Shown here: in pieces, positions 29,146-57,327 of the stretch
How positions within the stretch are numbered: the first letter of the stretch is position 1
Layout: each line of letters begins with the position of its first letter
Origin: a plasmid
Sequence record: NZ_CP024426.1
Strand: one strand, 5' to 3'
DNA length: 64,000 nucleotides
The notes under the pieces: generated by a model
The model's input: the letters and a program-made list of their open reading frames with translations, nothing else
Database searches by the model: none
What the model was told of the DNA's origin: nothing
Made by a program: the position numbers and the translations under genes

Positions 29146-29284
29146 GGGCCTTCCGGGTGGCAGGCAGGGCCTGCCGGTTGCAGAAATGTCCTGGAACCGG
29201 GGACAGGCGGGCCCCCGCAGGACGGCTCCTCACCTCTGCGGATAGGCCGCTATCCGGGCGCGCCCCGCGGCCCGAAATGGGTGA

Positions 29285-29460
29285 TCGCCTTGGCAGGTCT
29301 CCTGGCTTGCGGATCATCGCTCGGGCCGGCCTTCCCGGGACGGATCCCAGTGGCGTCGTCGGCCGTCGCTCTCCGCCCACAGTTGCGGGGGCAGCCCCGG
29401 ATTGGCCGCAGGCGGCCCGCCGGGTTCCCTTTTCATCCGGCCTTGCGGGCCGGAACCAAA
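29285..29460 (-). promoter_or_regulatory. Cobalamin (AdoCbl) riboswitch in the 5' leader of the TonB receptor operon
   Basis: Minus-strand RNA contains AAAAGGGAACCCGG, GCTGCCCCCGCAACTGT, the B12 box GCCACTG, GGGAAGGC and AAGCCAGGAGACCTGCC. These are all hallmark cobalamin riboswitch blocks in the correct order. Confidence 0.8.
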
Positions 29461-29556
29461 GCGCGCACCTGTTCGCGCAACTGCCCCCGGCCTGTCAAGC
29501 GCCAAGCGCAAGCCCGGGGCGGGCGGTTGCGGGACCGGGGCGAAAAGGCCCCGGTG

Positions 29557-48267: not shown

Positions 48268-48456
48268 CGCCTGTCCCCCGCTTCTGGTCCGCCCGGGCAA
48301 GGGGCGCGCGGAATTCAACGTCCACGCCACCGCCGGAAGTTCCCCGGACCACGCAAGATCCGGTGGAGCCGGGGAAAACCGGCAACAGCCCCCCGTCATC
48401 GCTGTTTTCAGCAACGGTTTTTCGTGCTATGCTGGTGGGGTTGTTAGGAGGTGCGA

Positions 48457-48564
48457 ATGAAACCCCTGGTTCTTTTCCTGACGTTGACCTTTTCCCTGAT
48501 TGGTGCCCTGGACAGCGGCCCGGCCCACGCCGGACCTTGCAATCCCAACGTCCAACGCTGCTGA
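48457..48564 (+). CDS. 35-aa secreted microprotein precursor MKPLVLFLTLTFSLIGALDSGPAHA|GPCNPNVQRC
   Basis: Perfect SD (TTAGGAGGTgcgaATG). Classic Sec signal with AHA cleavage site. Mature decapeptide with two Cys. Immediately upstream of the giant membrane-protein gene. Confidence 0.55.
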   Translation: MKPLVLFLTLTFSLIGALDSGPAHAGPCNPNVQRC

Positions 48565-48570
48565 ACGACT

Positions 48571-48614
48571 CCGGCGCCGACCCCTGGGGCCGGCGCCCGG
48601 TTTTCCGTATTTGT
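48571..48614 (+). terminator. GC-rich hairpin plus U-rich tract after the microprotein gene (possible partial terminator/attenuator)
   Basis: GGCGCCGACCCC-tg-GGGGCCGGCGCC (1 mismatch) followed by GTTTTCCGTATTTG. Confidence 0.35.
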
Positions 48615-48635
48615 TAATCGGTATTCGGAGGCCCC

Positions 48636-51600
48636 ATGGCAGACCCATGGCCGGCCGAGGTGCCCGCGTCCCTGTGGACCTTCAACCAGCTTTCCGCCGA
48701 AGAGGTGGTGCAGGTCCCCATGATGGGCGTCAAATTCGCCTCGGGCTTCTTGTACGCCTTTGCCTTTGGCTGCATTTTCATCGCGGTTTTCGCCTGGCAA
48801 AGATTTCGCATCAAGACGGTGGTGAAATCCCCGTCGCGCGCCCTGACCCAGCTTGGGCCCAATGACCTTGGCGGCCAGGCTGCCCTGATCCGGGCCTATT
48901 TCATCTATGCGGGCTCGATCCTGCTGCTTTATGTCTCGTTGACGTTCTTTGGCAAGCTGCTGGTGCAGATGGCCCGCCTGGTGCCTGCCATCGGCATCGA
49001 CGCCTATGCAGACAAGCTGCGCTTCGACAGCCCGCAATGGCCGCTGATGCTGGCATTCGGCTTTGCAGGCCTGGCGCAGATGCTGCCCCCGGTCGCCGCG
49101 ATCGAAGGCTGGCTGCGGCTGCGCGCCTATCGCGCGGTGGGCATCCCGGTGCGGCTGGAACAGACCATGCGCAACCTGATCGTGACCCTGGAGCGCGCGG
49201 GGCCGAAAGGCGACCTAGAGGAATCCCCGCTGGGCAAGGCGCTGTCATGCTATCGCGCGCAATGGGACGGGATAATCAAAGGCCACGCCTGGGCGGGCGC
49301 CTGGGCGCGGCGGCGCGCGAGCCGCGCGCAGGACCTGGTTTCGCTGTTGTCGCAGCTTGAACTGCTGGTGTCCTGGTCCAAAAGCAAGCGCGGCAGCTGG
49401 CCGGGACACGAGGTGTCCCAGACCGTGCGCGACCTTGAGGAAACCTATGTCCGCGAAAGCGGAGACCTGCTGAACGAATTCCAGCAGCGCATGAGCGAAC
49501 CGCCCGAGATCGACGACAGGCGCCTGTCCGGCACCCGCGAGGCCCGGTTGGACGATTATCTTAACACGACGTTCAGCAAAGCCGAAGGCTTGCGCCATGA
49601 CTTGGTGGGAATCCTTGCGATCTTTCTGGAACGCGACATCGACAGCCCCGACCGCACTGATGACTTCAAGGATCACAGCTATACGGACCCTGCCCTGCAC
49701 GCGCTTCTGATCAAGACCGCGCGGGCGGACAGCGCGGGGACAGGCCCGGAATCGGGGCTGTTCGCCGCCCTGATCGCCGTCTTCGTCCTGTGCGCCGCCG
49801 CGGCTTGGCGGGGACTGCAGGATCCGGTGGGGCAATATGTCGAGCGGACGAACCTTTACGGGATGCTGATCTCGGCGCTGGTGGAAACGCTGCGCCTGGC
49901 TTCCCTGACCTGGCTGCCGCTTCTTGCCGCATTTTCGCTGCGCCAATACCTGTGGGACAACGGCGACTGGGCCCGCGCGCGCTACAGCACCAAGCCCGAT
50001 CACTATGCCGGGCAGATCCTAGTCTGCACGTCGCTTGGCGTTGCGACAGGTGTGCTGGGACTGGTTCTGGTGGCTGCGCTGAAGGCGTTCTTCATTGCCA
50101 CAAACCGCGAGTATTTTGCCGAATTGCTGGCGGGGGGCCCCGCGCCGTTCCTGCTTTACTATCCGACGCAGGCGATCATCCTGCCCGCGCTGATCCCCCT
50201 GGCCATCTATTCCGCCGATCTAAGCAAGACCCCGCACCGCCGGCTGATCTGGGGTGTCGTGGCGGCCCTGGTGATCGGGACGCTATGGCTTGCCCATGCA
50301 ACCTACTGGAACGGGACCGTCCTGATCCGCGACTGCGTGTCCGCGACCGCAATTCTGACCGAGGCCTGCGTCCGCCGGATGGACCTGATAAGCCATCTGG
50401 CCCTGATGACACTGACCTTTCTGGCGGTCGGCATCTTTGGCGACCTGCCCGAGCGGCGCCGCGCGAATGTCCGTGAACGCGAGCGGACCGGGACAGGCGT
50501 CGAAAGCGCCGCCGGTCTGGCATTGCTGGCGATGCTGTTCCCGATGCTGGTCTTGGCGCCAACGTCAGCCCGCGCCGAGCCCGAGCCGGTTCGCATCGGG
50601 TTTCGCTTCGACATCGCGCCATTTTCCTATCGGAATGAAGCAAGCGGCCCGCGCCAGTTCCACGGCTATCTGGCCGATATGTGCTTTGACATCTTCGACG
50701 GCTATCCCGCCTACAAGGTCGAGGCCGTGCCCGTCGGGGCGAAAGACCGCTTCGACATGTTCAACGCGGGTAACGTGGATCTCTTGTGCGACGCCGTTAC
50801 CATGCGGTTTTCCGAACGCGACCGATCCGAAAAGGGGATCTATTCACCCATCGTCTTCGTATCGGGCGTGTCCTATCTGGAAACGGGCAACCGCAATGTC
50901 GGGGCGGTCGCTCTGGGCTTCGTGCTGAACGCGACGGCGCGGGACGTTGCGCTCAAGACCTGCCATGTGGACCAGTTTCGGGTCTTCATGCCGGATACGC
51001 GGGCGCTGCTGGTGGAACGCTGCAACCTGCGCTGGCAGGCGGCATTGCTGGCCCAGCGTTTGCTGAACGAACCAAGCATCGTGCAAAGCCCCGCAAGCCA
51101 GATCGCGGTCACGCAGGTCGATCCACGCCGGCGCGCATCCCTTGATGCTGTCATGGAGTCTTGGCGTCGCCTGCACGAGGACTGGGAAACGCTTCACCAA
51201 AGGGCCGAAAATCTGAACACGATGGTCCAGGACCAGAACATCACGCGGTTGAGCACCGCCACCACGGCACTGATCAAAACCGTGCTGAGTGACGGGAACG
51301 GTATCCAGACCTGCCTGGACAGCCTAGGGAGGAACGCTGCGGTCTGCGCCGAGGCCAGCAAAGCCCTGTCCGACCCGCGTTGCGGCGGGATCGCCGACAA
51401 GAACGCCTCTGCCAAGGCACCGGCCGATGCGAACATCCCCTTTGAGCAGCGCATATGGGACGATTACAGTTTTTGCCCCATGTCCGACCACGGCGCGCTG
51501 ATCAAGTGGTTCTGCACATCCGGCAAGGACCTGCGCCGAGTCTATCTGGGCGACCGCGAGCTGATCGTCGCCAAGCGCGACGCCTGGGCGCGCGACATCG

Positions 51601-51920
51601 GTTCATGCCCGGTGCAGCGGGCCGAGGGGGCCGAGTTCCTGTCCTATGAGCCTTATGCATTTCTGGTTCAAAGGAAAAAGCCCGCCCTGGCGGCCTTCGT
51701 CCAGCAGCGGGTCTATGAGCTGTTTTCGAACCGCGCCCAGATGATCGCGCGCTTCAACGCCAGCTTTTCCAGGAAGGATGCTTCCGGCAGCGGCCAGCCG
51801 GATGTTCGCATGTCCGTGCCTCTGGCCTATCTGTTCCTGCTGAACGCCGTCGAGAACGACACGCTGTTCCTGCCGAACGCCGATCTGTCGCCGGAAGCGG
51901 CGGCGGGGAACCGCCCTTAG
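48636..51920 (+). CDS. 1094-aa polytopic membrane protein with a C-terminal periplasmic, Cys-rich solute-binding-protein (SBP family 3-like) domain; family unknown
   Basis: GGAGG SD 5 nt upstream. Roughly 10 predicted TM helices in aa 1-645. Internal signal-like helix (aa 625-646). Then RIGFRFDIAPFSY…YEPYAFLVQRKKP, which resembles bilobed polar amino-acid SBPs, interrupted by a Cys-rich insert. Confidence 0.85.
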   Translation: MADPWPAEVPASLWTFNQLSAEEVVQVPMMGVKFASGFLYAFAFGCIFIAVFAWQRFRIKTVVKSPSRALTQLGPNDLGGQAALIRAYFIYAGSILLLYVSLTFFGKLLVQMARLVPAIGIDAYADKLRFDSPQWPLMLAFGFAGLAQMLPPVAAIEGWLRLRAYRAVGIPVRLEQTMRNLIVTLERAGPKGDLEESPLGKALSCYRAQWDGIIKGHAWAGAWARRRASRAQDLVSLLSQLELLVSWSKSKRGSWPGHEVSQTVRDLEETYVRESGDLLNEFQQRMSEPPEIDDRRLSGTREARLDDYLNTTFSKAEGLRHDLVGILAIFLERDIDSPDRTDDFKDHSYTDPALHALLIKTARADSAGTGPESGLFAALIAVFVLCAAAAWRGLQDPVGQYVERTNLYGMLISALVETLRLASLTWLPLLAAFSLRQYLWDNGDWARARYSTKPDHYAGQILVCTSLGVATGVLGLVLVAALKAFFIATNREYFAELLAGGPAPFLLYYPTQAIILPALIPLAIYSADLSKTPHRRLIWGVVAALVIGTLWLAHATYWNGTVLIRDCVSATAILTEACVRRMDLISHLALMTLTFLAVGIFGDLPERRRANVRERERTGTGVESAAGLALLAMLFPMLVLAPTSARAEPEPVRIGFRFDIAPFSYRNEASGPRQFHGYLADMCFDIFDGYPAYKVEAVPVGAKDRFDMFNAGNVDLLCDAVTMRFSERDRSEKGIYSPIVFVSGVSYLETGNRNVGAVALGFVLNATARDVALKTCHVDQFRVFMPDTRALLVERCNLRWQAALLAQRLLNEPSIVQSPASQIAVTQVDPRRRASLDAVMESWRRLHEDWETLHQRAENLNTMVQDQNITRLSTATTALIKTVLSDGNGIQTCLDSLGRNAAVCAEASKALSDPRCGGIADKNASAKAPADANIPFEQRIWDDYSFCPMSDHGALIKWFCTSGKDLRRVYLGDRELIVAKRDAWARDIGSCPVQRAEGAEFLSYEPYAFLVQRKKPALAAFVQQRVYELFSNRAQMIARFNASFSRKDASGSGQPDVRMSVPLAYLFLLNAVENDTLFLPNADLSPEAAAGNRP

Positions 51921-51957
51921 CCGACCCATCCGCAACCCTTGCAGGCAGGAGCCGCCC

Positions 51958-54900
51958 ATGAAGCTGCAGATCCACGGCCAAAAGCAGGTCCCGGTCGACG
52001 AGACGCCGGCAGCAAACGGGGCCGTTACCGTCGAGGTCAAGGACAGGGTCACCGTGACCGGCCTCCGCGGCGATGCCCTGCCGGTGCAGATCGACCTGCC
52101 GCCGGACCATGTGCTGGAACTGCAGATGGAGGGCGAGGGCGCCCCCCGCCTGCTGCTGCGCGGGGACGAGGCGCAGGCCCTGCTGGCGGGCGGCGCGGCG
52201 ATGACCCGCGACGGCGCGGGCGACGATCTGCTGGTGCTGCCGACCCATCTGCAGCTTGACCCGCCCGCGCGCGGTCGCCGCGGTCTGGACCGGGGACTGC
52301 TGGCCTGGGCGGTTAAGACCGTCCAGGTGCTCAAGGTCGATGGCAAGCCCGCCGAGGCAGCCCGCCAGCTTGAGGATCAGAACCCCGCGCTGGGGCTGAA
52401 CCGCTGGCTGCCCGACGGCACGCTGGAGCCCCTTGCCCCCGGCACCGCAGCCGAGGGCAAGACCTGGCTTTTGTTCCTGCACGGCACGGCCTCTTCGACG
52501 CTGGAGGGCTTTGGCAAGCTGATCGGGGCGCAGCCGGCGATCTGGCGCCAGCTGCATGCGACCTACCCCGGACGGGTGCTGGCCTTCGACCACCGCACCC
52601 TGACCGAGGATCCGATCCAGAACGCCACGACGCTGCTGGCGGCGCTGCCTCCGGACATCACTCTGCACCTTGTCAGCCACAGCCGCGGCGGGCTGGTGGG
52701 CGAATTGCTGGCCCGGCCGCAACTGGTCGCGCCGGGCACCGACACGGTGTTCGACCCGGCCGAGGTGCAGGAACTGGCCGAACGGGACCGCCCTGCGGCC
52801 GAGGAACTGGGCCAGGCGCTGGTCGCTAGCGGGGTGCGGGTCACGCGCTTTGTCCGGGTGGCCTGCCCGGCGCGCGGCACCGACCTTGCCGGTGGCCGGC
52901 TGGACCGCTGGCTGAACCTGCTGTTCAACCTGGTGCAGCAAACGATCGACCCCCTGGCCATCGACGATGCTGTGAAGCGCAAGGTCGAGGGGCTGCGGCG
53001 GCTGGCCTTGGCGGCCTCGGCCGGGAAAGACAACCCCGACGCCCTGCCCGGCATCGCGGCCATGGCGCCGGATTCGTCCCCGCTGCTGGCCATCCTGAAC
53101 CGCCGCCCCGCCAACCCCGCCCCGCCCCAGGACGAAGCCCCCGCACAGGACGGGCTGGTCGTCATCGGCGGCGACGCCGAGCCGGCGGGCGTCGTCAAGC
53201 GCCTGCTGGTCTGGCTGGCCGACGCGCTGCTCCAGGGAGAGAACGACCTGGTGGTGGAAACCGGCTCGGTCGGGGGCGGGACGCCCCGCGCCGTGGCCCC
53301 GCCCCTGGTGCTGGATCGCGGGCCGCAGGTCGATCATTCGCGCTTCTTCGCCAACGACCGGACCGCGCAGGCGATGCTGCTGGGATTGCGCGACCCCGCC
53401 CTGCTGAGAGAGGGCTCGGTCCCCTCGCTGCCCGAGCAGATGCGCGAGGCCGAGGCCAGGCTGCGCAGCACGATCCGCTCGGCCGATGCCGCGCCTTTTC
53501 TGTCGCGGGGCCGGGGCACGCCACTGGCCGTTATACTGCCTGGGATCACCGGCAGCCACCTTGCCGTGGGGAAGAATCGCGTCTGGGTCAGCCCTTTCGG
53601 CATCTGCACGCGGGGCGTGAAGTCCCTGGCGCTCGGCAAGACGCAGATCACGGAAGACGGGGTGGTCGGGCTTTACTACGGCGCGCTTTGCGATCATCTG
53701 GCGCGCAGCCACGAGGTCGTGGCCATGCCTTATGACTGGCGCCTGTCCCTGCAGGACCTGGGCGCCCGCCTGGCGGCAAGGCTGACGGCCCTGCTGGCCC
53801 AGGACGACAGCCGCCCGCTTCACATCGTCGGCCATTCGATGGGCGGGCTGGTCGCGCGCATGGCGCTGGCCCAGTCGCCCGAGCTGATGCGCGGCTTTCT
53901 GGCCCATCCCGAATCGCGCTTGCTGATGCTGGGGACGCCGAACGGCGGGTCCTGGCAGATGGGGCTGGCGCTGTTGGGACGGACCCGGACGGTCAAGGCG
54001 CTGGCCCTGCTCAGCCCGCATGACGACATCGGCGACATCACCGCCATCCTGCGCGAATGGCCCGGCGCGGTGCAGCTTTTGCCGCCCGAGCTGCTGGTCC
54101 CGGAACCCTGGGCGGGATTTGACGCCGAAGCGCCCTCGGCCCAGGCTTTGGCCTTGGCGGCGCAGGCCCAGGTCCTGCTGCGGGACAAGGCGGGCATTCC
54201 GAAAGGCCGCAGCCTTTACGTCGCCGGGATGGGCGATACCTGCGCCGAGCTTCTTGTCGTCGATGGCGCGTTGAGCATGCGGGTTTCGCCCGAGGGCGAC
54301 GGCACCGTCTTGTGGCGCACCGGCATCCCCGACGGGGTCCCGGTCTGGTATGCGCCGTCGGAACACGGCGACCTGTGCAAGGACGCCTATCTGCATCCGG
54401 CAATCGCCGACCTGCTGCTGCGGGGAACGACCACCCTGCTGTCGGACCGGCCGGGCCGGCGCGGGGCGACTGCCGCAGTGGCGGCCACCCAGGTCGTCCC
54501 GGCCACGGAGGTTCTGCCCCTGATCCCTTCGGGCCCGCAGCTGCTGGCGATGGCCATGGGGGCCAGCCCGCCCGCGCTGCTGGACCGCTCGGCCCCCAGC
54601 CCCGAGGTCCGCGTGACCGTGGTCCACGGCAACCTGGAGTTCGCGCGCCACCCGATTCTGGTCGGCCACAACCTGGGCGATCCGATCATGGGGGCCGAGG
54701 CGGCGCTGGACCGCAGCCTGAACGGCAGGCTCAGCCGGCGCAATGCGCGCGGCCTGCACCCCGGCATCATCGAAAGCTGGGATGTGCATGTGGAACCCGT
54801 CACCACGACCGATGCGGGCGGCGCGGCGGGCACGGGCCTGCGGGGCGGCATCGTGGTGGGGCTGGGCGTCGCCTCGGCACTGACCACGGGCAGCCTGATG

Positions 54901-57327
54901 CGGACCATCCGCTGCGGTCTGCTGGCCTATGCCGACGCCGTCCAGCAGACCGACACGGACCGGCGCGCCCTGGCCGTTTCGGTGGTGTTGCTGGGCAGCG
55001 GCAGCGGCATGATCGCGGTCGCCGACAGCGTCAACGCCATCCTGAACGCGGTCGACCAGGCCAACCGCCTGCTGGAAACCGAGCCTGCCGGCGCGGTCCC
55101 GGGCGACGAGCCCCTGCGCTTTACCGAGATCGAGATCATCGAGTCGGTCGAACAGATCGCCGTCACCGCCTGGCACTCGGCGCGCGGCCGCATCACCCGC
55201 CTGCCCGGCCGCTTCGCCCTGGCCGGCCGGCTGGAGCAGGGGCGTGGCGGCTGGCGCCGGACCGGCCCCGAAACCGCGCCCGACTGGTGGATGGAGGTGT
55301 CGATCACCTCGGACCCGCCCGAGCCGGCCGCGCCCGGCCAGCCCGGCCGCGAAGGCCCGCTGCGCTATCTGCTGGTGGACGGGCGCGCCCGGGTCGAGGC
55401 CAAGGTGGTCGCCACCAGCCGCCGGCTGGTCGGGCACTATGTCTCGATGATCCCGGACAGCGTGGGCATGGCGGACCCGCGGGGCCTGTCGCCGGGGCGG
55501 ACGCTGTTTGAACTGCTGTGGCCCGCAGAGCTGAAGCAGCACAGCATCGAGGACCGCAACCTGCGCTTGGTTCTGGACCGCGAGACGGCTGCGATCCCGT
55601 GGGAGATGCTGGACGACCGCCGCCCCGCGCGCGACGGCTTCGGCGAAGAGGTCCTGATGGCGACCAAGCCCCCGTCCGTGCGCTACGGGGTGCTGCGCCA
55701 GCTGTTGGCGCAACGCGAGCGTCCGCTTCGGCCTCTGGGCGGCGGCAACCGGCAGGCGCTGGTCATCGGCGATCCGCGCGGGGGCGGCAGCACGCTGCCC
55801 ACCCTGCCCGGCGCCCGGGCCGAGGCCGAAGCGGTCGCAGGTCTGCTGGAGGCGGCAGGCTATGGCGTGACGCGCATGATCGGCGACACCGCCACCCCGG
55901 ACCAGGTGATCGCCGCGCTGTTCTCGCGCGTGTGGGACGTGATCCATGTGGCCAGCCACGGCGTCCTTGACTGGCAACCCACCCCCGACCAGCCGCCGCG
56001 CACCGGGATCGTGCTGGGCGCGCCGCCGCTGGACGTGATCGAATCCGGCATCCTGGCGCAACTGCCCGAGCCGCCGGCGCTGGCCTTTCTGAACTGTTGC
56101 CACCTGGGCAGCATCCCCGAAAGCGACCGTCACCTGCGCCGCGACCGGCCGGCCCTGGCCGCAAGCCTGGCGGTCGAACTGATCGAGGCGGGCTGCCCCG
56201 CCGTGGTCGCCTGCGGCTGGGCCGTCGACGACGGCTCCGCCATGCGCTTTGCCCGCACGCTTTACACCGATCTTTGCGGCGGCCAGAACTTTGGCGCCGC
56301 CGTGCGCCATGCGCGCGAGGTGGCCCATGACGGCGCCACCACCGACAACACCTGGGGCGCCTATCAGTGCTATGGGCATCCGGGCTTTGCGCTGTCGCTT
56401 GCGCCCAGGGGCTGGACCGAGGCCACGCCGGACGCCGCCTCTCCGTCCGAGGCGGTGGCGGTTCTGCAGCGCCTGAGCACCTGCGCCACCGCCCCGCCTG
56501 CGCCGCTGTCCGGCGATCCCGCCGGGACCCAGCGCCTGCGCCAGGACTTCTTGGCCACGCGCGAGGCCGATTTGATCCGCCTGGGCAAGTTCGAGGAGGA
56601 CATCCGCAGGAACGGCTGGGCCGACCGCTCGGATGTGGCAAGCGCGCTTGGCGATGCCTATGCCGCCTGCGGCGACATCACCAGCGCCGTCGATGCCTAT
56701 CGCCGCGCGGCCATGGCCGAGACGCTGACCCTGCCGGTGCGCGCGCTGCAGGACCGATTTGCGCTGCCTTTGCGCCTGCCGAAGGATGACGCCAACGAAC
56801 TGCGCGCCGCGGTCCAGGCGATGGGCCTGCTGAACACCGCCTGCGGCCCCAGCCCGCAGCGGCTGGAACTGATCGCGGGCCTGCACCTGCGCCTGGCCGC
56901 CCTGGAAAGCCAGGCCAAGCCCCGGAACGCCGCGCTGGACCAGGCCCTGGACGCGCTGAACGAGGCGCATGATCTGGCCACCCAAGGCGGCAGCGTTGCC
57001 GCGGCCGGGCGTATCGCGCTGCGGCGGCTGCTGGCGGCCATCCTGCGCGGCAAGAATGCGGCCGACACGGCAACGGCCGCCGGGGCGGCGCTGGCGGCCT
57101 TGCCACGGGACGACCCGCAGCGCCCGCTGGCGCTGTTCCTGCAGGCGCTGGCGCAGGGCGACACGAATGCAATCGCCGCCCTGCCCCGGGACGACGCCCT
57201 TCAAGCCCTGGACTCCGACACGCTGTGGACCCTGGCCGAGGCGGCGCGGCTGGCCGGGGACTGCCTGACCGGATCCTTGGGCGATGCGGCCAAGGCCTGC
57301 GCCCGCGACCTGTCGATGCTGATCTAG
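51958..57327 (+). CDS. 1789-aa cytoplasmic multidomain protein with two lipase-like alpha/beta hydrolase domains, a CHAT (caspase-like) protease domain and a helical/TPR-like C-terminus
   Basis: Hydrolase 1: LFLHGTASS oxyanion motif and nucleophile SHSRGG (Ser242, nt 52681-52683). Hydrolase 2: PGITGSH and GHSMGG (Ser627, nt 53836-53838). CHAT: HVASHG (His1334, nt 55957-55959) and FLNCCHLG (Cys1381, nt 56098-56100). AGGAG SD. No signal peptide. Confidence 0.85.
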   Translation: MKLQIHGQKQVPVDETPAANGAVTVEVKDRVTVTGLRGDALPVQIDLPPDHVLELQMEGEGAPRLLLRGDEAQALLAGGAAMTRDGAGDDLLVLPTHLQLDPPARGRRGLDRGLLAWAVKTVQVLKVDGKPAEAARQLEDQNPALGLNRWLPDGTLEPLAPGTAAEGKTWLLFLHGTASSTLEGFGKLIGAQPAIWRQLHATYPGRVLAFDHRTLTEDPIQNATTLLAALPPDITLHLVSHSRGGLVGELLARPQLVAPGTDTVFDPAEVQELAERDRPAAEELGQALVASGVRVTRFVRVACPARGTDLAGGRLDRWLNLLFNLVQQTIDPLAIDDAVKRKVEGLRRLALAASAGKDNPDALPGIAAMAPDSSPLLAILNRRPANPAPPQDEAPAQDGLVVIGGDAEPAGVVKRLLVWLADALLQGENDLVVETGSVGGGTPRAVAPPLVLDRGPQVDHSRFFANDRTAQAMLLGLRDPALLREGSVPSLPEQMREAEARLRSTIRSADAAPFLSRGRGTPLAVILPGITGSHLAVGKNRVWVSPFGICTRGVKSLALGKTQITEDGVVGLYYGALCDHLARSHEVVAMPYDWRLSLQDLGARLAARLTALLAQDDSRPLHIVGHSMGGLVARMALAQSPELMRGFLAHPESRLLMLGTPNGGSWQMGLALLGRTRTVKALALLSPHDDIGDITAILREWPGAVQLLPPELLVPEPWAGFDAEAPSAQALALAAQAQVLLRDKAGIPKGRSLYVAGMGDTCAELLVVDGALSMRVSPEGDGTVLWRTGIPDGVPVWYAPSEHGDLCKDAYLHPAIADLLLRGTTTLLSDRPGRRGATAAVAATQVVPATEVLPLIPSGPQLLAMAMGASPPALLDRSAPSPEVRVTVVHGNLEFARHPILVGHNLGDPIMGAEAALDRSLNGRLSRRNARGLHPGIIESWDVHVEPVTTTDAGGAAGTGLRGGIVVGLGVASALTTGSLMRTIRCGLLAYADAVQQTDTDRRALAVSVVLLGSGSGMIAVADSVNAILNAVDQANRLLETEPAGAVPGDEPLRFTEIEIIESVEQIAVTAWHSARGRITRLPGRFALAGRLEQGRGGWRRTGPETAPDWWMEVSITSDPPEPAAPGQPGREGPLRYLLVDGRARVEAKVVATSRRLVGHYVSMIPDSVGMADPRGLSPGRTLFELLWPAELKQHSIEDRNLRLVLDRETAAIPWEMLDDRRPARDGFGEEVLMATKPPSVRYGVLRQLLAQRERPLRPLGGGNRQALVIGDPRGGGSTLPTLPGARAEAEAVAGLLEAAGYGVTRMIGDTATPDQVIAALFSRVWDVIHVASHGVLDWQPTPDQPPRTGIVLGAPPLDVIESGILAQLPEPPALAFLNCCHLGSIPESDRHLRRDRPALAASLAVELIEAGCPAVVACGWAVDDGSAMRFARTLYTDLCGGQNFGAAVRHAREVAHDGATTDNTWGAYQCYGHPGFALSLAPRGWTEATPDAASPSEAVAVLQRLSTCATAPPAPLSGDPAGTQRLRQDFLATREADLIRLGKFEEDIRRNGWADRSDVASALGDAYAACGDITSAVDAYRRAAMAETLTLPVRALQDRFALPLRLPKDDANELRAAVQAMGLLNTACGPSPQRLELIAGLHLRLAALESQAKPRNAALDQALDALNEAHDLATQGGSVAAAGRIALRRLLAAILRGKNAADTATAAGAALAALPRDDPQRPLALFLQALAQGDTNAIAALPRDDALQALDSDTLWTLAEAARLAGDCLTGSLGDAAKACARDLSMLI

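What the first reader, a model, noticed from the sequence alone, without database searches (positions are those of the whole stretch)
48405..57327. Undescribed three-gene module: secreted Cys-peptide, giant SBP-domain membrane protein and giant lipase-lipase-CHAT protease protein
Three co-oriented genes, each with a strong Shine-Dalgarno, lie between yihY and the rhamnose cluster. They encode:
- a 35-aa signal-peptide microprotein (48457-48564);
- a 1094-aa polytopic membrane protein ending in a periplasmic, Cys-rich solute-binding-protein-like domain;
- a 1789-aa cytoplasmic protein carrying two tandem lipase-type alpha/beta-hydrolase domains (SHSRG and GHSMG nucleophile elbows), a CHAT caspase-like protease (His1334/Cys1381) and a helical repeat tail.

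CHAT proteases and lipase effectors are individually known from conflict/defence systems. I do not recognise this combination with a membrane SBP-sensor and a cognate secreted peptide as any named system. A plausible model is an extracytoplasmic peptide or ligand sensing module that controls a cytoplasmic protease/phospholipase effector (abortive-infection-like or signalling). A promoter-like TTTTCA-N17-TATGCT lies just upstream (~48405-48440).
Basis: partly seen in the sequence, partly recalled or inferred. Interest (0 to 1): 0.85.

Follow-up and report, generated by a model that had tools for sequence, protein, structure and literature searches.

The report
Peptide-sensor module with giant lipase-protease
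This plasmid carries an undescribed gene set for a tiny secreted ring peptide, a matching membrane receptor and a giant lipase-protease enzyme, which may let bacteria couple a signal outside the cell to a self-destructive response.

Summary
All three ORFs, their Shine-Dalgarno sites, domains and catalytic residues are as described. Only the promoter call is weak.

The interpretation needs reshaping. The conserved unit is a secreted peptide ending in C-[N/D]-P-x-[V/I/L]-Q-x-C, a ~600-aa 10-TM protein with no Pfam family or matching solved fold, and a type-2 solute-binding protein. I found this unit in about 45 alphaproteobacterial and metagenomic loci. The membrane and binding parts are fused in the window and separate elsewhere.

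The 1789-aa protein belongs to a large, uncharacterised family (DUF7379, LCAT-like, CHAT, TPR tail; over 1000 relatives). That family usually stands alone among TIR and CHAT genes. It joins the peptide-receptor pair only in one Paracoccus clade, where the genes are co-oriented and often overlap by 4 nt.

Elsewhere the same core sits beside non-homologous giant hydrolases (GDSL lipase with caspase or amidase and M15 peptidase, and trypsin-like peptidase).

Two P. yeei strains share near-identical flanks and CHAT gene. Their receptor gene is only ~65% identical, and the mature peptide differs at two residues.

Best reading (confidence 0.4): an envelope peptide-receptor sensor that controls a latent protease/lipase death effector. 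No function has been tested, and I found no description of the core.

The parts
48405..48433 (+).
   Evidence: The sequence is present but matches only 8 of 12 consensus positions and is not reported by the promoter scan. It is identical in the second P. yeei allele, as is nearly all of this intergenic stretch.
48446..48451 (+). Shine-Dalgarno AGGAGG of the peptide gene
   Evidence: 5-nt spacing to the ATG at 48457.
48457..48564 (+). Precursor-peptide gene (35 aa). Codons 1-25 (48457-48531) form a Sec-type signal peptide ending A-H-A. Codons 26-35 (48532-48561) encode the predicted mature peptide GPCNPNVQRC, about 1.08 kDa with one disulfide, followed by the stop codon.
   Evidence: The same arrangement sits upstream of the membrane gene in all but one related locus. 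There are 39 distinct peptides, 36 of them C-x6-C with consensus C-[ND]-P-x-[VIL]-Q-x-C at the C-terminus. Cleavage and the disulfide are inferred, not shown.
48575..48603 (+). G+C-rich stem-loop followed by TTTT, just after the peptide stop (terminator- or attenuator-like)
   Evidence: Stem-loops occur in the same spacer in many related loci. The folding energy is not better than shuffles (z 0.27), so this part is weak.
48636..51920 (+). Fused membrane transducer and binding protein (1094 aa)
48636..50471 (+). Membrane module (aa 1-612): nine of the ten TM helices, with no Pfam family and no matching solved fold
49113..49745 (+). Predicted cytoplasmic helical domain (aa ~160-370) between TM3 and TM4; candidate output or docking surface
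   Evidence: long helices. Motifs RAYRAVGIPVR, RGxWPGxEVS and LAIFLERD are conserved. The cytoplasmic location rests on the positive-inside rule and is an inference.
50499..50570 (+). TM10 (aa ~622-645), ending in S-A-R-A|E. It may be an internal signal peptide that is cleaved to free the binding domain.
   Evidence: Most fused relatives keep A-x-A followed by Q or E here. Where the binding protein is a separate gene, it starts with an ordinary signal peptide at the equivalent place. Cleavage is an inference.
50583..51845 (+). Periplasmic type-2 binding-protein domain (aa ~650-1070) with eight invariant cysteines
   Evidence: Pfam SBP_bac_3. Foldseek target TM-scores of about 0.6-0.75 to stand-alone amino-acid binding proteins such as DEBP, GlnBP and ArgBP. 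Invariant residues include C683, C718, C776, C796, C916, C947, C960, C991 and D719/T722/R724.
50991..51455 (+). Helical insertion inside the binding domain (aa ~786-940); the most variable part of the protein
   Evidence: Helices in the AF2 model. Identity between the two P. yeei alleles is 23-42% here, with dN 0.65 and dS 1.27.
48696..51922 (+). Sharply bounded hyper-divergent allelic segment within P. yeei, coinciding with the receptor gene
   Evidence: Per-150-nt identity to L051 is 21-87% inside the segment and 97-100% on both sides. dS is 0.76 here against 0.035 in the CHAT gene.
51958..57327 (+). Giant effector protein (1789 aa), with no signal peptide
   Evidence: A 37-nt spacer with an AGGAG Shine-Dalgarno and no terminator-like site precedes it.
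52450..53397 (+). First alpha/beta-hydrolase domain (DUF7379, aa ~165-480); HGT oxyanion motif at 175-177 and nucleophile S242
53515..54447 (+). Second alpha/beta-hydrolase domain (LCAT/LPLA2-like, aa ~520-830); nucleophile S627
54595..55467 (+). Conserved middle region (aa ~880-1170) with no assigned family
   Evidence: Conserved blocks in alignment A4; no Pfam match.
55492..56376 (+). CHAT caspase-like protease domain (aa 1179-1473); dyad H1334/C1381
56425..57324 (+). Helical repeat tail (aa ~1490-1789), TPR / 14-3-3-like. More distant family members score as Pfam TPR-S here.

Best explanation
This is an envelope-spanning peptide-receptor module that controls a latent degradative effector.

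Shown:
- Three co-oriented, tightly spaced genes.
- A conserved core of precursor peptide, 10-TM protein and type-2 binding protein.
- A giant protein with two lipase-type hydrolase domains, a CHAT protease with an intact His-Cys dyad, and a TPR-like tail.

Inferred:
1. The 35-aa precursor is exported by Sec and cut after A-H-A. DsbA-type oxidation then closes a Cys3-Cys10 ring, giving the ~1.08 kDa peptide GPCNPNVQRC in the periplasm, and possibly outside the cell.
2. The peptide is the ligand of the periplasmic binding domain. Its free C-terminal carboxylate may take the place of an amino acid's carboxylate at the conserved D719/T722/R724 motif.
3. Occupancy of the binding domain is passed through the 10-TM module to its ~210-aa cytoplasmic helical domain.
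4. That domain holds or releases the 1789-aa protein. Once licensed, the CHAT protease cleaves in cis or trans and unleashes the two lipase domains on membrane lipids, causing growth arrest or death.

I cannot decide what the circuit reads out. It could be a self or kin signal, in the manner of a pherotype. It could equally be a guard that fires when peptide supply or envelope integrity fails, for example during phage takeover.
For: 1. Peptide and membrane gene are adjacent in all but one of about 45 loci, across membrane proteins only ~20% identical. The peptide ends in C-[ND]-P-x-[VIL]-Q-x-C and is preceded by a signal-peptidase-type site.
2. The binding protein is fused in some genomes and a separate adjacent gene in others, a Rosetta-stone link.
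3. The CHAT protein follows the receptor in 9 inspected loci (Paracoccus genomes and unnamed assemblies encoding close relatives) at ~50% protein identity, with a 4-nt overlap in three of them.
4. The same core sits with non-homologous giant hydrolases: GDSL + caspase + M15 in L027 and L028, and GDSL + Amidase_3 + M15 followed by Trypsin_2 in L016 and L042, where the spacers are 11-38 nt. A subtilase, a PLD-like protein and an SLT protein are neighbours in L001, L007 and L023.
5. In two P. yeei strains the receptor gene is ~65% identical, while the flanks and the CHAT gene are 97-100% identical. The peptide's signal part is identical, but its mature part differs at 2 of 10 residues.
6. Wider relatives of the CHAT protein lie among TIR_2, DUF4062 and CHAT-TPR genes, and some carry a TIR domain.
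7. Caspase-like proteases that activate alpha/beta-hydrolase zymogens to kill the cell have been demonstrated experimentally (PMC12642450).
Against: - About two thirds of peptide-receptor loci have only housekeeping neighbours, so the core works without an adjacent effector.
- More than 1000 relatives of the CHAT protein lack this partner. One at 49% identity has no receptor gene beside it.
- The same CHAT protein (98.8% identical) is paired with receptors 35% divergent. This argues against a tightly co-adapted protein-protein interface, although receptor residues 1-200 remain 80-97% identical.
- The membrane protein has no recognisable signalling domain.
- Peptide cleavage, the disulfide, binding to the receptor, protease activity and lipase activity are all untested.
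- No phage or kin phenotype is known.
Confidence: 0.4

Rival explanations
1. There are two independent systems side by side. The 1789-aa protein is a self-contained conflict protein whose own TPR tail is the sensor. It landed next to an unrelated peptide-receptor pair in an ancestor of one Paracoccus clade and has been inherited as a block.
For: - The CHAT family has over 1000 relatives without this neighbour, and these often lie among TIR and CHAT genes.
- A 49%-identical relative in Paenirhodobacter lacks the receptor.
- Most receptor loci lack any hydrolase.
- The receptor allele was swapped in P. yeei with no change in the CHAT protein.
Against: - Adjacency with a 4-nt overlap or 20-96-nt spacers, and co-orientation, persists at ~50% protein identity in at least 9 inspected loci.
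- Independent, non-homologous giant lipase/peptidase genes are joined to the same core in at least 5 other genomes, in both fused and unfused forms. This is hard to explain by chance.
- The clade linked to the receptor has lost the Pfam TPR-S signal in its tail.
Confidence: 0.2
2. The core is a new kind of binding-protein-dependent uptake system. The secreted peptide, or something it captures, is bound by the binding protein and imported through the 10-TM protein. The hydrolases are merely neighbours, or they process the cargo.
For: - A binding protein encoded next to a polytopic membrane protein is the layout of ABC, TRAP and TTT importers (established knowledge).
- The binding fold resembles amino-acid binding proteins, and the D-x-x-T-x-R motif is conserved.
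- One distant locus has a TonB-dependent receptor about 3 kb downstream.
Against: - The membrane domain has no similarity to any permease family or solved transporter fold, and the operon has no ATPase.
- A nutrient importer is not expected to show a sharply bounded allele with dS 0.76 in 97-100% identical surroundings.
- It is also not expected to be recurrently linked to caspase, trypsin or lipase giants.
- Cys-x6-Cys in the oxidising periplasm suggests a disulfide rather than a metal site (inference).
Confidence: 0.15
3. The order of action is reversed. The giant protease is the sensor, and the membrane protein is its substrate and executioner: cleaving the cytoplasmic helical domain turns the 10-TM protein into a membrane-damaging pore, following gasdermin-like logic.
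For: - The protease classes found beside the core are CHAT, caspase C14, trypsin-like and subtilase. These match PADLOC's generic caspase, trypsin-like and subtilase models.
- Protease-activated pore-forming or hydrolase effectors are documented (PMC12642450).
Against: - This does not explain the secreted peptide or the periplasmic binding domain, which are the most conserved partners.
- Most core loci have no protease nearby.
- The giant proteins carry their own lipase and peptidoglycan-hydrolase effector domains.
Confidence: 0.1
4. The membrane protein is a gated export or lysis conduit, holin-like or a new secretion route. It lets leaderless envelope-degrading enzymes reach the periplasm or other cells, under control of the peptide.
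For: The associated giants include Amidase_3, Peptidase_M15, SLT, GDSL and Tle1-like lipase domains. Their usual substrates are outside the cytoplasm, yet the proteins lack signal peptides.
Against: - No outer-membrane or energising component is conserved.
- A 190-kDa protein passing through a 10-TM monomer is implausible without oligomerisation.
- The CHAT, TPR and TIR context of the wider family points to an intracellular role.
Confidence: 0.1

Closest known systems
Protease-linked latent death effectors of antiviral defence (caspase-like protease plus alpha/beta-hydrolase zymogen; PMC12642450)
   Same: A caspase-family protease with a repeat-type sensor region is combined with lipase-like alpha/beta-hydrolase effector domains. 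The wider family sits in defence-like surroundings.
   Different: - Here protease and two hydrolase domains are one 1789-aa polypeptide.
- The hydrolases are DUF7379 and LCAT-like; homology to the characterised hydrolase was not tested.
- The protein is preceded by a peptide and a membrane receptor, which those modules lack.
TPR-CHAT proteases: type III-E Craspase (Csx29), the DdvA anti-sigma factor (PMC11506125) and the Borvo BovA candidate
   Same: A CHAT domain with a His-Cys dyad joined to helical repeats. DdvA shows that CHAT-based switches can be wired to sensing in the periplasm.
   Different: - There is no CRISPR partner and no sigma/anti-sigma pair.
- The CHAT domain here is predicted cytoplasmic, and sensing would be done by a separate membrane protein.
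- The BovA match is 22.9 bits and covers only the CHAT part.
Peptide pheromone and receptor systems (Agr AgrD/AgrC, ComC/ComD, PrgZ/Opp-dependent pheromones); from my own knowledge
   Same: - A short ribosomal peptide is encoded next to its presumed membrane receptor.
- The peptide is a small ring.
- Mature peptide and receptor ectodomain co-vary between strains while the leader stays constant.
   Different: - Export uses an ordinary Sec signal peptide, and the ring is a disulfide rather than a thiolactone.
- The receptor has no histidine kinase, and there is no response regulator.
- The peptide scaffold is conserved across genera instead of being hypervariable.
Binding-protein-coupled membrane proteins: LuxP-LuxQ, the BvgS Venus-flytrap domains, TRAP/TTT importers, GluR0/iGluR channels; from my own knowledge
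   Same: A type-2 periplasmic binding fold is attached to, or encoded beside, a polytopic membrane protein. Foldseek also retrieves iGluR ligand-binding domains.
   Different: - The membrane part matches none of these families.
- The binding domain carries a ~150-aa helical, cysteine-containing insertion.
- A dedicated secreted peptide gene is part of the unit.
Computationally defined conflict systems with TPR-S sensors and caspase, TIR or lipase effectors (PMC7159879)
   Same: More distant relatives of the 1789-aa protein score for Pfam TPR-S, and some carry TIR. The protein is a large multi-effector conglomerate.
   Different: I did not check whether this exact architecture is listed in that paper. 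No NTPase is present. The envelope peptide-receptor partner is not part of those systems as far as I know.

Membership tests
CHAT caspase-like proteases (Pfam PF12770) | Profile match above the curated cut-off | tested here: met
   108.7 bits against a cut-off of 24, aa 1179-1473, covering positions 3-288 of the 289-position profile.
CHAT caspase-like proteases (Pfam PF12770) | Catalytic His-Cys dyad | tested here: met
   H1334 and C1380/C1381 are invariant in 18 relatives of 32-58% identity.
CHAT caspase-like proteases (Pfam PF12770) | Proteolytic activity | not testable with these tools
   Needs biochemistry.
Lipase-type alpha/beta hydrolases (DUF7379 PF24096; LCAT PF02450) | Profile matches above the curated cut-offs | tested here: met
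   DUF7379 scores 126.5 bits against 33, and LCAT 31.1 against 21. A family profile matches LPLA2/LCAT structures at E 4e-6.
Lipase-type alpha/beta hydrolases (DUF7379 PF24096; LCAT PF02450) | Nucleophile elbow and oxyanion motif conserved | tested here: met
   H175-G176-T177 and H241-S242-R243-G244-G245 are invariant. H626, G629 and G630 are invariant, and S627 is kept in at least 90%. The two domains align at the elbow.
Lipase-type alpha/beta hydrolases (DUF7379 PF24096; LCAT PF02450) | Complete Ser-Asp-His triad mapped | tested here: inconclusive
   Conserved D781 and H803/D805 are candidates for the second domain, but I did not map them on a structure. The acid and base of the first domain are not assigned.
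Borvo defence system (BovA, PADLOC) | Full-length match to BovA | tested here: not met
   22.9 bits, E 9e-6, covering only positions 508-670 of the 711-position profile, which is the CHAT part.
Protease plus alpha/beta-hydrolase zymogen death modules (PMC12642450) | A caspase-like protease linked to an alpha/beta-hydrolase effector | tested here: met
   Both are in one polypeptide. The published modules are two genes.
Protease plus alpha/beta-hydrolase zymogen death modules (PMC12642450) | Homology of the hydrolase to the characterised LcHydrolase, and activation by two cleavages | not tested
Type-2 periplasmic binding proteins (SBP_bac_3, PF00497) | Profile match and two-lobe fold | tested here: met
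   27.4 bits against a cut-off of 26.4, which is marginal. Foldseek gives target TM-scores of about 0.6-0.75 to stand-alone amino-acid binding proteins. Separate-gene versions score 27.7-39.3 bits.
Binding-protein-dependent importers (ABC, TRAP, TTT) | Membrane permease of a known importer family, plus an ATPase for ABC systems | tested here: not met
   [not shown]
Two-component peptide quorum sensing (Agr/Com type) | Histidine-kinase receptor and response regulator | tested here: not met
   The receptor has no HisKA or HATPase_c domain. No regulator is conserved nearby; a response-regulator gene appears in only one locus, L017.
Two-component peptide quorum sensing (Agr/Com type) | Secreted peptide encoded beside the receptor and co-varying with it | tested here: met
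   Secretion is predicted, not shown.
Ligand-gated channels of the iGluR/GluR0 type | Potassium-channel-like pore domain joined to the binding fold | tested here: not met
   Only the ligand-binding part aligns. There is no Lig_chan or Ion_trans match.

The most novel reading that the evidence does not exclude
This would be a previously unknown class of bacterial cell-envelope receptor. A Sec-exported, disulfide-closed decapeptide, a dedicated periplasmic binding protein and a 10-TM transducer with a new fold form a specificity-diversifying ligand-receptor pair. That pair licenses giant cytoplasmic protease/lipase (or peptidoglycan-hydrolase) death effectors. It would be a peptide-keyed self, kin or infection checkpoint in Alphaproteobacteria, with interchangeable effectors.
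Probability: 0.3. Interest if true: 0.9.

Novelty: categorically new. Interest (0 to 1): 0.78.

Why it matters
If the model holds, it adds a new signalling principle to Gram-negative bacteria: a genetically encoded periplasmic ring peptide read by a binding-protein receptor, with no kinase. It would also connect that signal to caspase-like and lipase death effectors, which so far are known mainly as intracellular phage sensors.

It would give a first handle on the large, uncharacterised DUF7379-CHAT family (over 1000 relatives). It would also define a new membrane-protein fold family of 231 representative clusters, and explain a striking allelic polymorphism on Paracoccus yeei plasmids. P. yeei is an opportunistic human pathogen.

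The system is small enough to test directly: three genes, and a peptide that can be synthesised. Even if the link to the effector proves incidental, the peptide, membrane and binding-protein triad is a conserved, unannotated system. Its peptide gene is missing from the RefSeq plasmid record I inspected.

Tried and rejected
- NCBIfam gave only sub-threshold hits, and PADLOC gave only a weak BovA match over the CHAT part. phmmer of the 1789-aa protein against PDB sequences found nothing.
I rebuilt the alignment from recorded proteins.
- An alignment of all stand-alone relatives was too diverse for a metagenome scan, so I used a closer subset.
- Literature searches for DUF7379, for the peptide strings, and for CHAT plus binding protein in Paracoccus found nothing relevant.
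- The stem-loop after the peptide gene folds no better than shuffled sequence, although similar hairpins recur in other loci. I therefore leave it as a weak feature.
- I first took a third peptide variant (GPCDPNVQTC, L053) for a third P. yeei allele. Its flanks are only 55-89% identical, so it comes from another species.
- I considered a lipoprotein, but there is no lipobox: a residue separates G/A from the Cys. I considered a metal-binding peptide, but C-x6-C in the periplasm fits a disulfide better. I considered a radical-SAM or other modified peptide, but no maturase is conserved nearby. All three were dropped on sequence grounds.
- Pfam scans of about 30 further neighbours showed mostly housekeeping genes. 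The hydrolase link therefore holds for roughly a third of the loci, not all.

Full report
**1.

The window carries three co-oriented ORFs:
- 48457-48564, 35 aa: MKPLVLFLTLTFSLIGALDSGPAHAGPCNPNVQRC.
- 48636-51920, 1094 aa.
- 51958-57327, 1789 aa.

Each is preceded by a Shine-Dalgarno site: AGGAGG, GGAGG and AGGAG.

Pfam places SBP_bac_3 at the C-terminus of the 1094-aa protein. In the 1789-aa protein it finds DUF7379, LCAT and CHAT.

The HSRGG elbow, H1334 and C1380/C1381 are invariant, and S627 is nearly so, in 18 relatives down to 32% identity. The DUF7379 region and the LCAT-like region align with each other around the nucleophile elbow (hhalign probability 92%). "Two tandem lipase-type domains" is therefore fair. 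A family profile also hits LPLA2/LCAT structures, and TPR / 14-3-3 repeats in the tail.

The proposed promoter is present but matches only 8 of 12 consensus positions and is not picked up by the scan.

The region is 98-99% identical to Paracoccus yeei plasmids. There RefSeq names the two large genes "transporter substrate-binding domain-containing protein" and "CHAT domain-containing protein", and does not annotate the peptide.

**2. The conserved unit is peptide, membrane protein and binding protein**

Relatives of the 1094-aa protein are few (73 clusters). They are confined to Paracoccus, other Rhodobacterales and the rhizobia. I examined 33 species genomes:
- A small ORF lies 45-200 nt upstream of the membrane gene in all but one locus (L029), including L032 and L033, which were found on a second look.
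- Each ORF has a signal peptide, an A-x-A-type cleavage site, and a short tail ending in two cysteines.

A profile of the membrane part alone, searched against 1.84 billion representatives, found 231 proteins. These include stand-alone forms of ~580-660 aa with no Pfam family.

A still more distant stand-alone clade is ~20% identical to the window protein and comes from DNA of 55-70% G+C. It shows the same layout:
- Upstream peptides such as ...AAAQCNPAVQQCR, ...AQTACNPATQYCR and ...AQATCNPEVQVCR.
- A downstream binding-protein gene that carries an insertion.

In all there are 39 distinct peptides. Thirty-six have a C-x6-C loop with consensus C-[N/D]-P-x-[V/I/L]-Q-x-C, at or within one residue of the C-terminus.

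The microprotein is therefore a real gene. The fused 1094-aa protein is a Rosetta-stone fusion of two partners.

**3. What the receptor looks like**

AF2 models have pLDDT 76 for residues 1-612 and 82.5 for the full length. Together with hydropathy they give:
- Ten TM helices.
- A ~210-aa helical domain between TM3 and TM4.
- A C-terminal two-lobe binding fold, interrupted by a ~150-aa helical insertion.

By the positive-inside rule the helical domain is cytoplasmic. The binding domain, with eight invariant cysteines, is periplasmic; this topology is inferred.

The binding domain resembles amino-acid binding proteins (target TM-scores of about 0.6-0.75 to the stand-alone ones) and keeps a D-x-x-T-x-R motif.

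TM10 ends in A-x-A followed by Q or E in most fused relatives. It corresponds to the ordinary signal peptide of the separate binding proteins. The fused product may thus be cut into two chains; this is an inference.

**4. The giant protein belongs to a broad family that usually stands alone**

More than 1000 relatives share the DUF7379, LCAT-like and CHAT architecture with a TPR-type tail (Pfam TPR-S). They occur across Proteobacteria and beyond, and some carry an extra TIR domain.

Neighbourhoods of distant members contain TIR_2, DUF4062 and CHAT-TPR genes, or nothing notable.

I found no literature on DUF7379. The closest experimentally grounded analogy is recent work on caspase-like proteases in defence. 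These activate alpha/beta-hydrolase zymogens by cleavage and so kill the cell (PMC12642450). DdvA shows that a TPR-CHAT unit can be wired to periplasmic sensing (PMC11506125).

**5. Is the trio a unit?**

Within the clade of CHAT proteins at least 48% identical to the window's, the peptide, receptor and CHAT order is kept in every locus I inspected but one:
- *P. yeei*: two alleles.
- *P. siganidrum*, *P. litorisediminis*, *P. simplex* and *P. binzhouensis*.
- *Paracoccus* sp. DMF.
- Two further unnamed assemblies.

The spacers are 20-96 nt, or the genes overlap by 4 nt. Five more metagenome contigs are inferred from shared contig lengths. The exception is a Paenirhodobacter relative that instead follows a Tle1-like phospholipase.

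More telling, the same core is joined to non-homologous giants elsewhere:
- *P. lichenicola* and *P. aerius*: a 1792-aa GDSL lipase + caspase C14 + M15 peptidase protein.
- *Ensifer aridi*: a related 657-aa hydrolase.

A subtilase, a PLD-like protein and an SLT protein are neighbours in three further loci.

None of the giants I examined has a signal peptide.

About two thirds of core loci, however, have only housekeeping neighbours. The link is recurrent and unlikely to be chance, but it is facultative.

**6. A natural experiment within *P. yeei***

A second strain carries the same locus between the same flanks.
- DNA identity is 97-100% on both sides, including the whole CHAT gene; the CHAT protein is 98.8% identical.
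- Identity falls to 21-87% per 150-nt window exactly across the receptor gene, 48696-51922. The receptor protein is ~65% identical.
- Both synonymous and non-synonymous divergence are more than 20-fold higher in the receptor (dS 0.76, dN 0.25) than in the CHAT gene (dS 0.035, dN 0.006).
- Divergence is highest in the helical insertion of the binding domain (dN 0.65).

The two alleles are each other's closest relatives. This looks like an old polymorphism or an allelic replacement, not simple fast evolution.

In the nearly identical peptide gene, the signal peptide is unchanged. The 10-residue mature part differs at two positions: GPCNPNVQRC against GPCDPNIQRC. The numbers are small, but the pattern is what a ligand-receptor specificity pair would show.

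It also shows that one CHAT protein tolerates very different receptors. This weakens the idea of a finely co-adapted interface between them.

**7. Most likely mechanism, and rivals**

I favour a peptide-receptor sensor controlling a latent protease/lipase effector, at confidence 0.4. The steps would be:
1. The peptide is exported, cut and oxidised.
2. It binds the periplasmic domain.
3. The 10-TM module passes occupancy to its cytoplasmic helical domain.
4. That domain restrains or licenses the giant protein.
5. The CHAT protease then frees the lipase domains.

Every step after "the genes are conserved together" is inference. Whether the circuit reads a self or kin signal, or guards peptide supply or envelope integrity during infection, is open.

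Rivals:
- Two independent systems inherited as a block (0.2).
- A new binding-protein-dependent importer for the peptide or its cargo (0.15).
- The membrane protein as the protease's substrate and pore-forming executioner (0.1).
- A gated conduit for leaderless envelope hydrolases (0.1).

**8. Novelty and verdict**

The 1789-aa protein is a new member of a catalogued but uncharacterised family. It resembles known protease-effector death modules.

The peptide, membrane protein and binding-protein core fails the membership tests for importers, two-component peptide sensing and ligand-gated channels. It matches no family model or solved fold, and I could not find it in the searchable literature.

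I therefore rate the module as categorically new in composition, with its function still unproven. Interest is 0.78.

Noticed in passing
window 48696-51922, compared with L051 8060-11213: The receptor gene exists in two very divergent alleles (~65% protein identity; dS 0.76) at the same P. yeei locus. The flanks and the CHAT gene are 97-100% identical. The mature peptide differs at 2 of 10 residues, while its signal peptide is unchanged.
   Followed up: yes
L038 9237-10682 and 10670-12520 (P. yeei CCUG 32053 plasmid pYEE1): In this strain RefSeq annotates the receptor as two overlapping CDSs ('hypothetical protein' and 'transporter substrate-binding domain-containing protein'). This suggests a frameshift or a sequencing error. 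The peptide gene is not annotated.
   Followed up: no
L027 4215-9593 (-), Paracoccus lichenicola; relatives in L028, L018 and L016: A 1792-aa protein with GDSL lipase, caspase (Peptidase_C14) and Peptidase_M15 domains lies divergently upstream of a peptide-receptor pair. It is not homologous to the window's giant protein but follows the same lipase-plus-protease logic.
   Followed up: partly
[not shown]
   Followed up: partly
L036 5853-7574 and L054 11318-13483: T6SS Tle1-like phospholipase genes sit next to close relatives of the CHAT protein. One case lacks the receptor and the other has the full trio.
   Followed up: no
L039 1226-2698 and 12219-13196; L041 12472-16447; L040 6001-12417: Distant relatives of the 1789-aa protein are flanked by TIR_2, DUF4062 and CHAT-TPR genes, and in Geobacter the protein is fused to a TIR domain. 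This gives a defence-island-like context for the wider family.
   Followed up: partly
window 50499-50570 (receptor aa 622-645): The last TM helix ends in an A-x-A motif followed by Q or E, conserved in most fused relatives. It corresponds to the signal peptide of the separately encoded binding proteins. The fused protein may therefore be cleaved into two chains.
   Followed up: partly
window 48575-48603, and the equivalent spacers in L003-L006, L010, L014, L015, L017, L024: A G+C-rich stem-loop often follows the peptide gene, which could set the peptide-to-receptor expression ratio. In the window its folding energy is no better than shuffled sequence.
   Followed up: partly
window 29275-29475 (-): A cobalamin riboswitch (Rfam RF00174, 126 bits), unrelated to the finding.
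   Followed up: no
L015 4632-5813 (P. ravus); one search hit P0174 (R. leguminosarum plasmid): Several peptide-receptor loci lie on plasmids or next to a Rep3 replication initiator, as in the window. The system may travel on secondary replicons.
   Followed up: no
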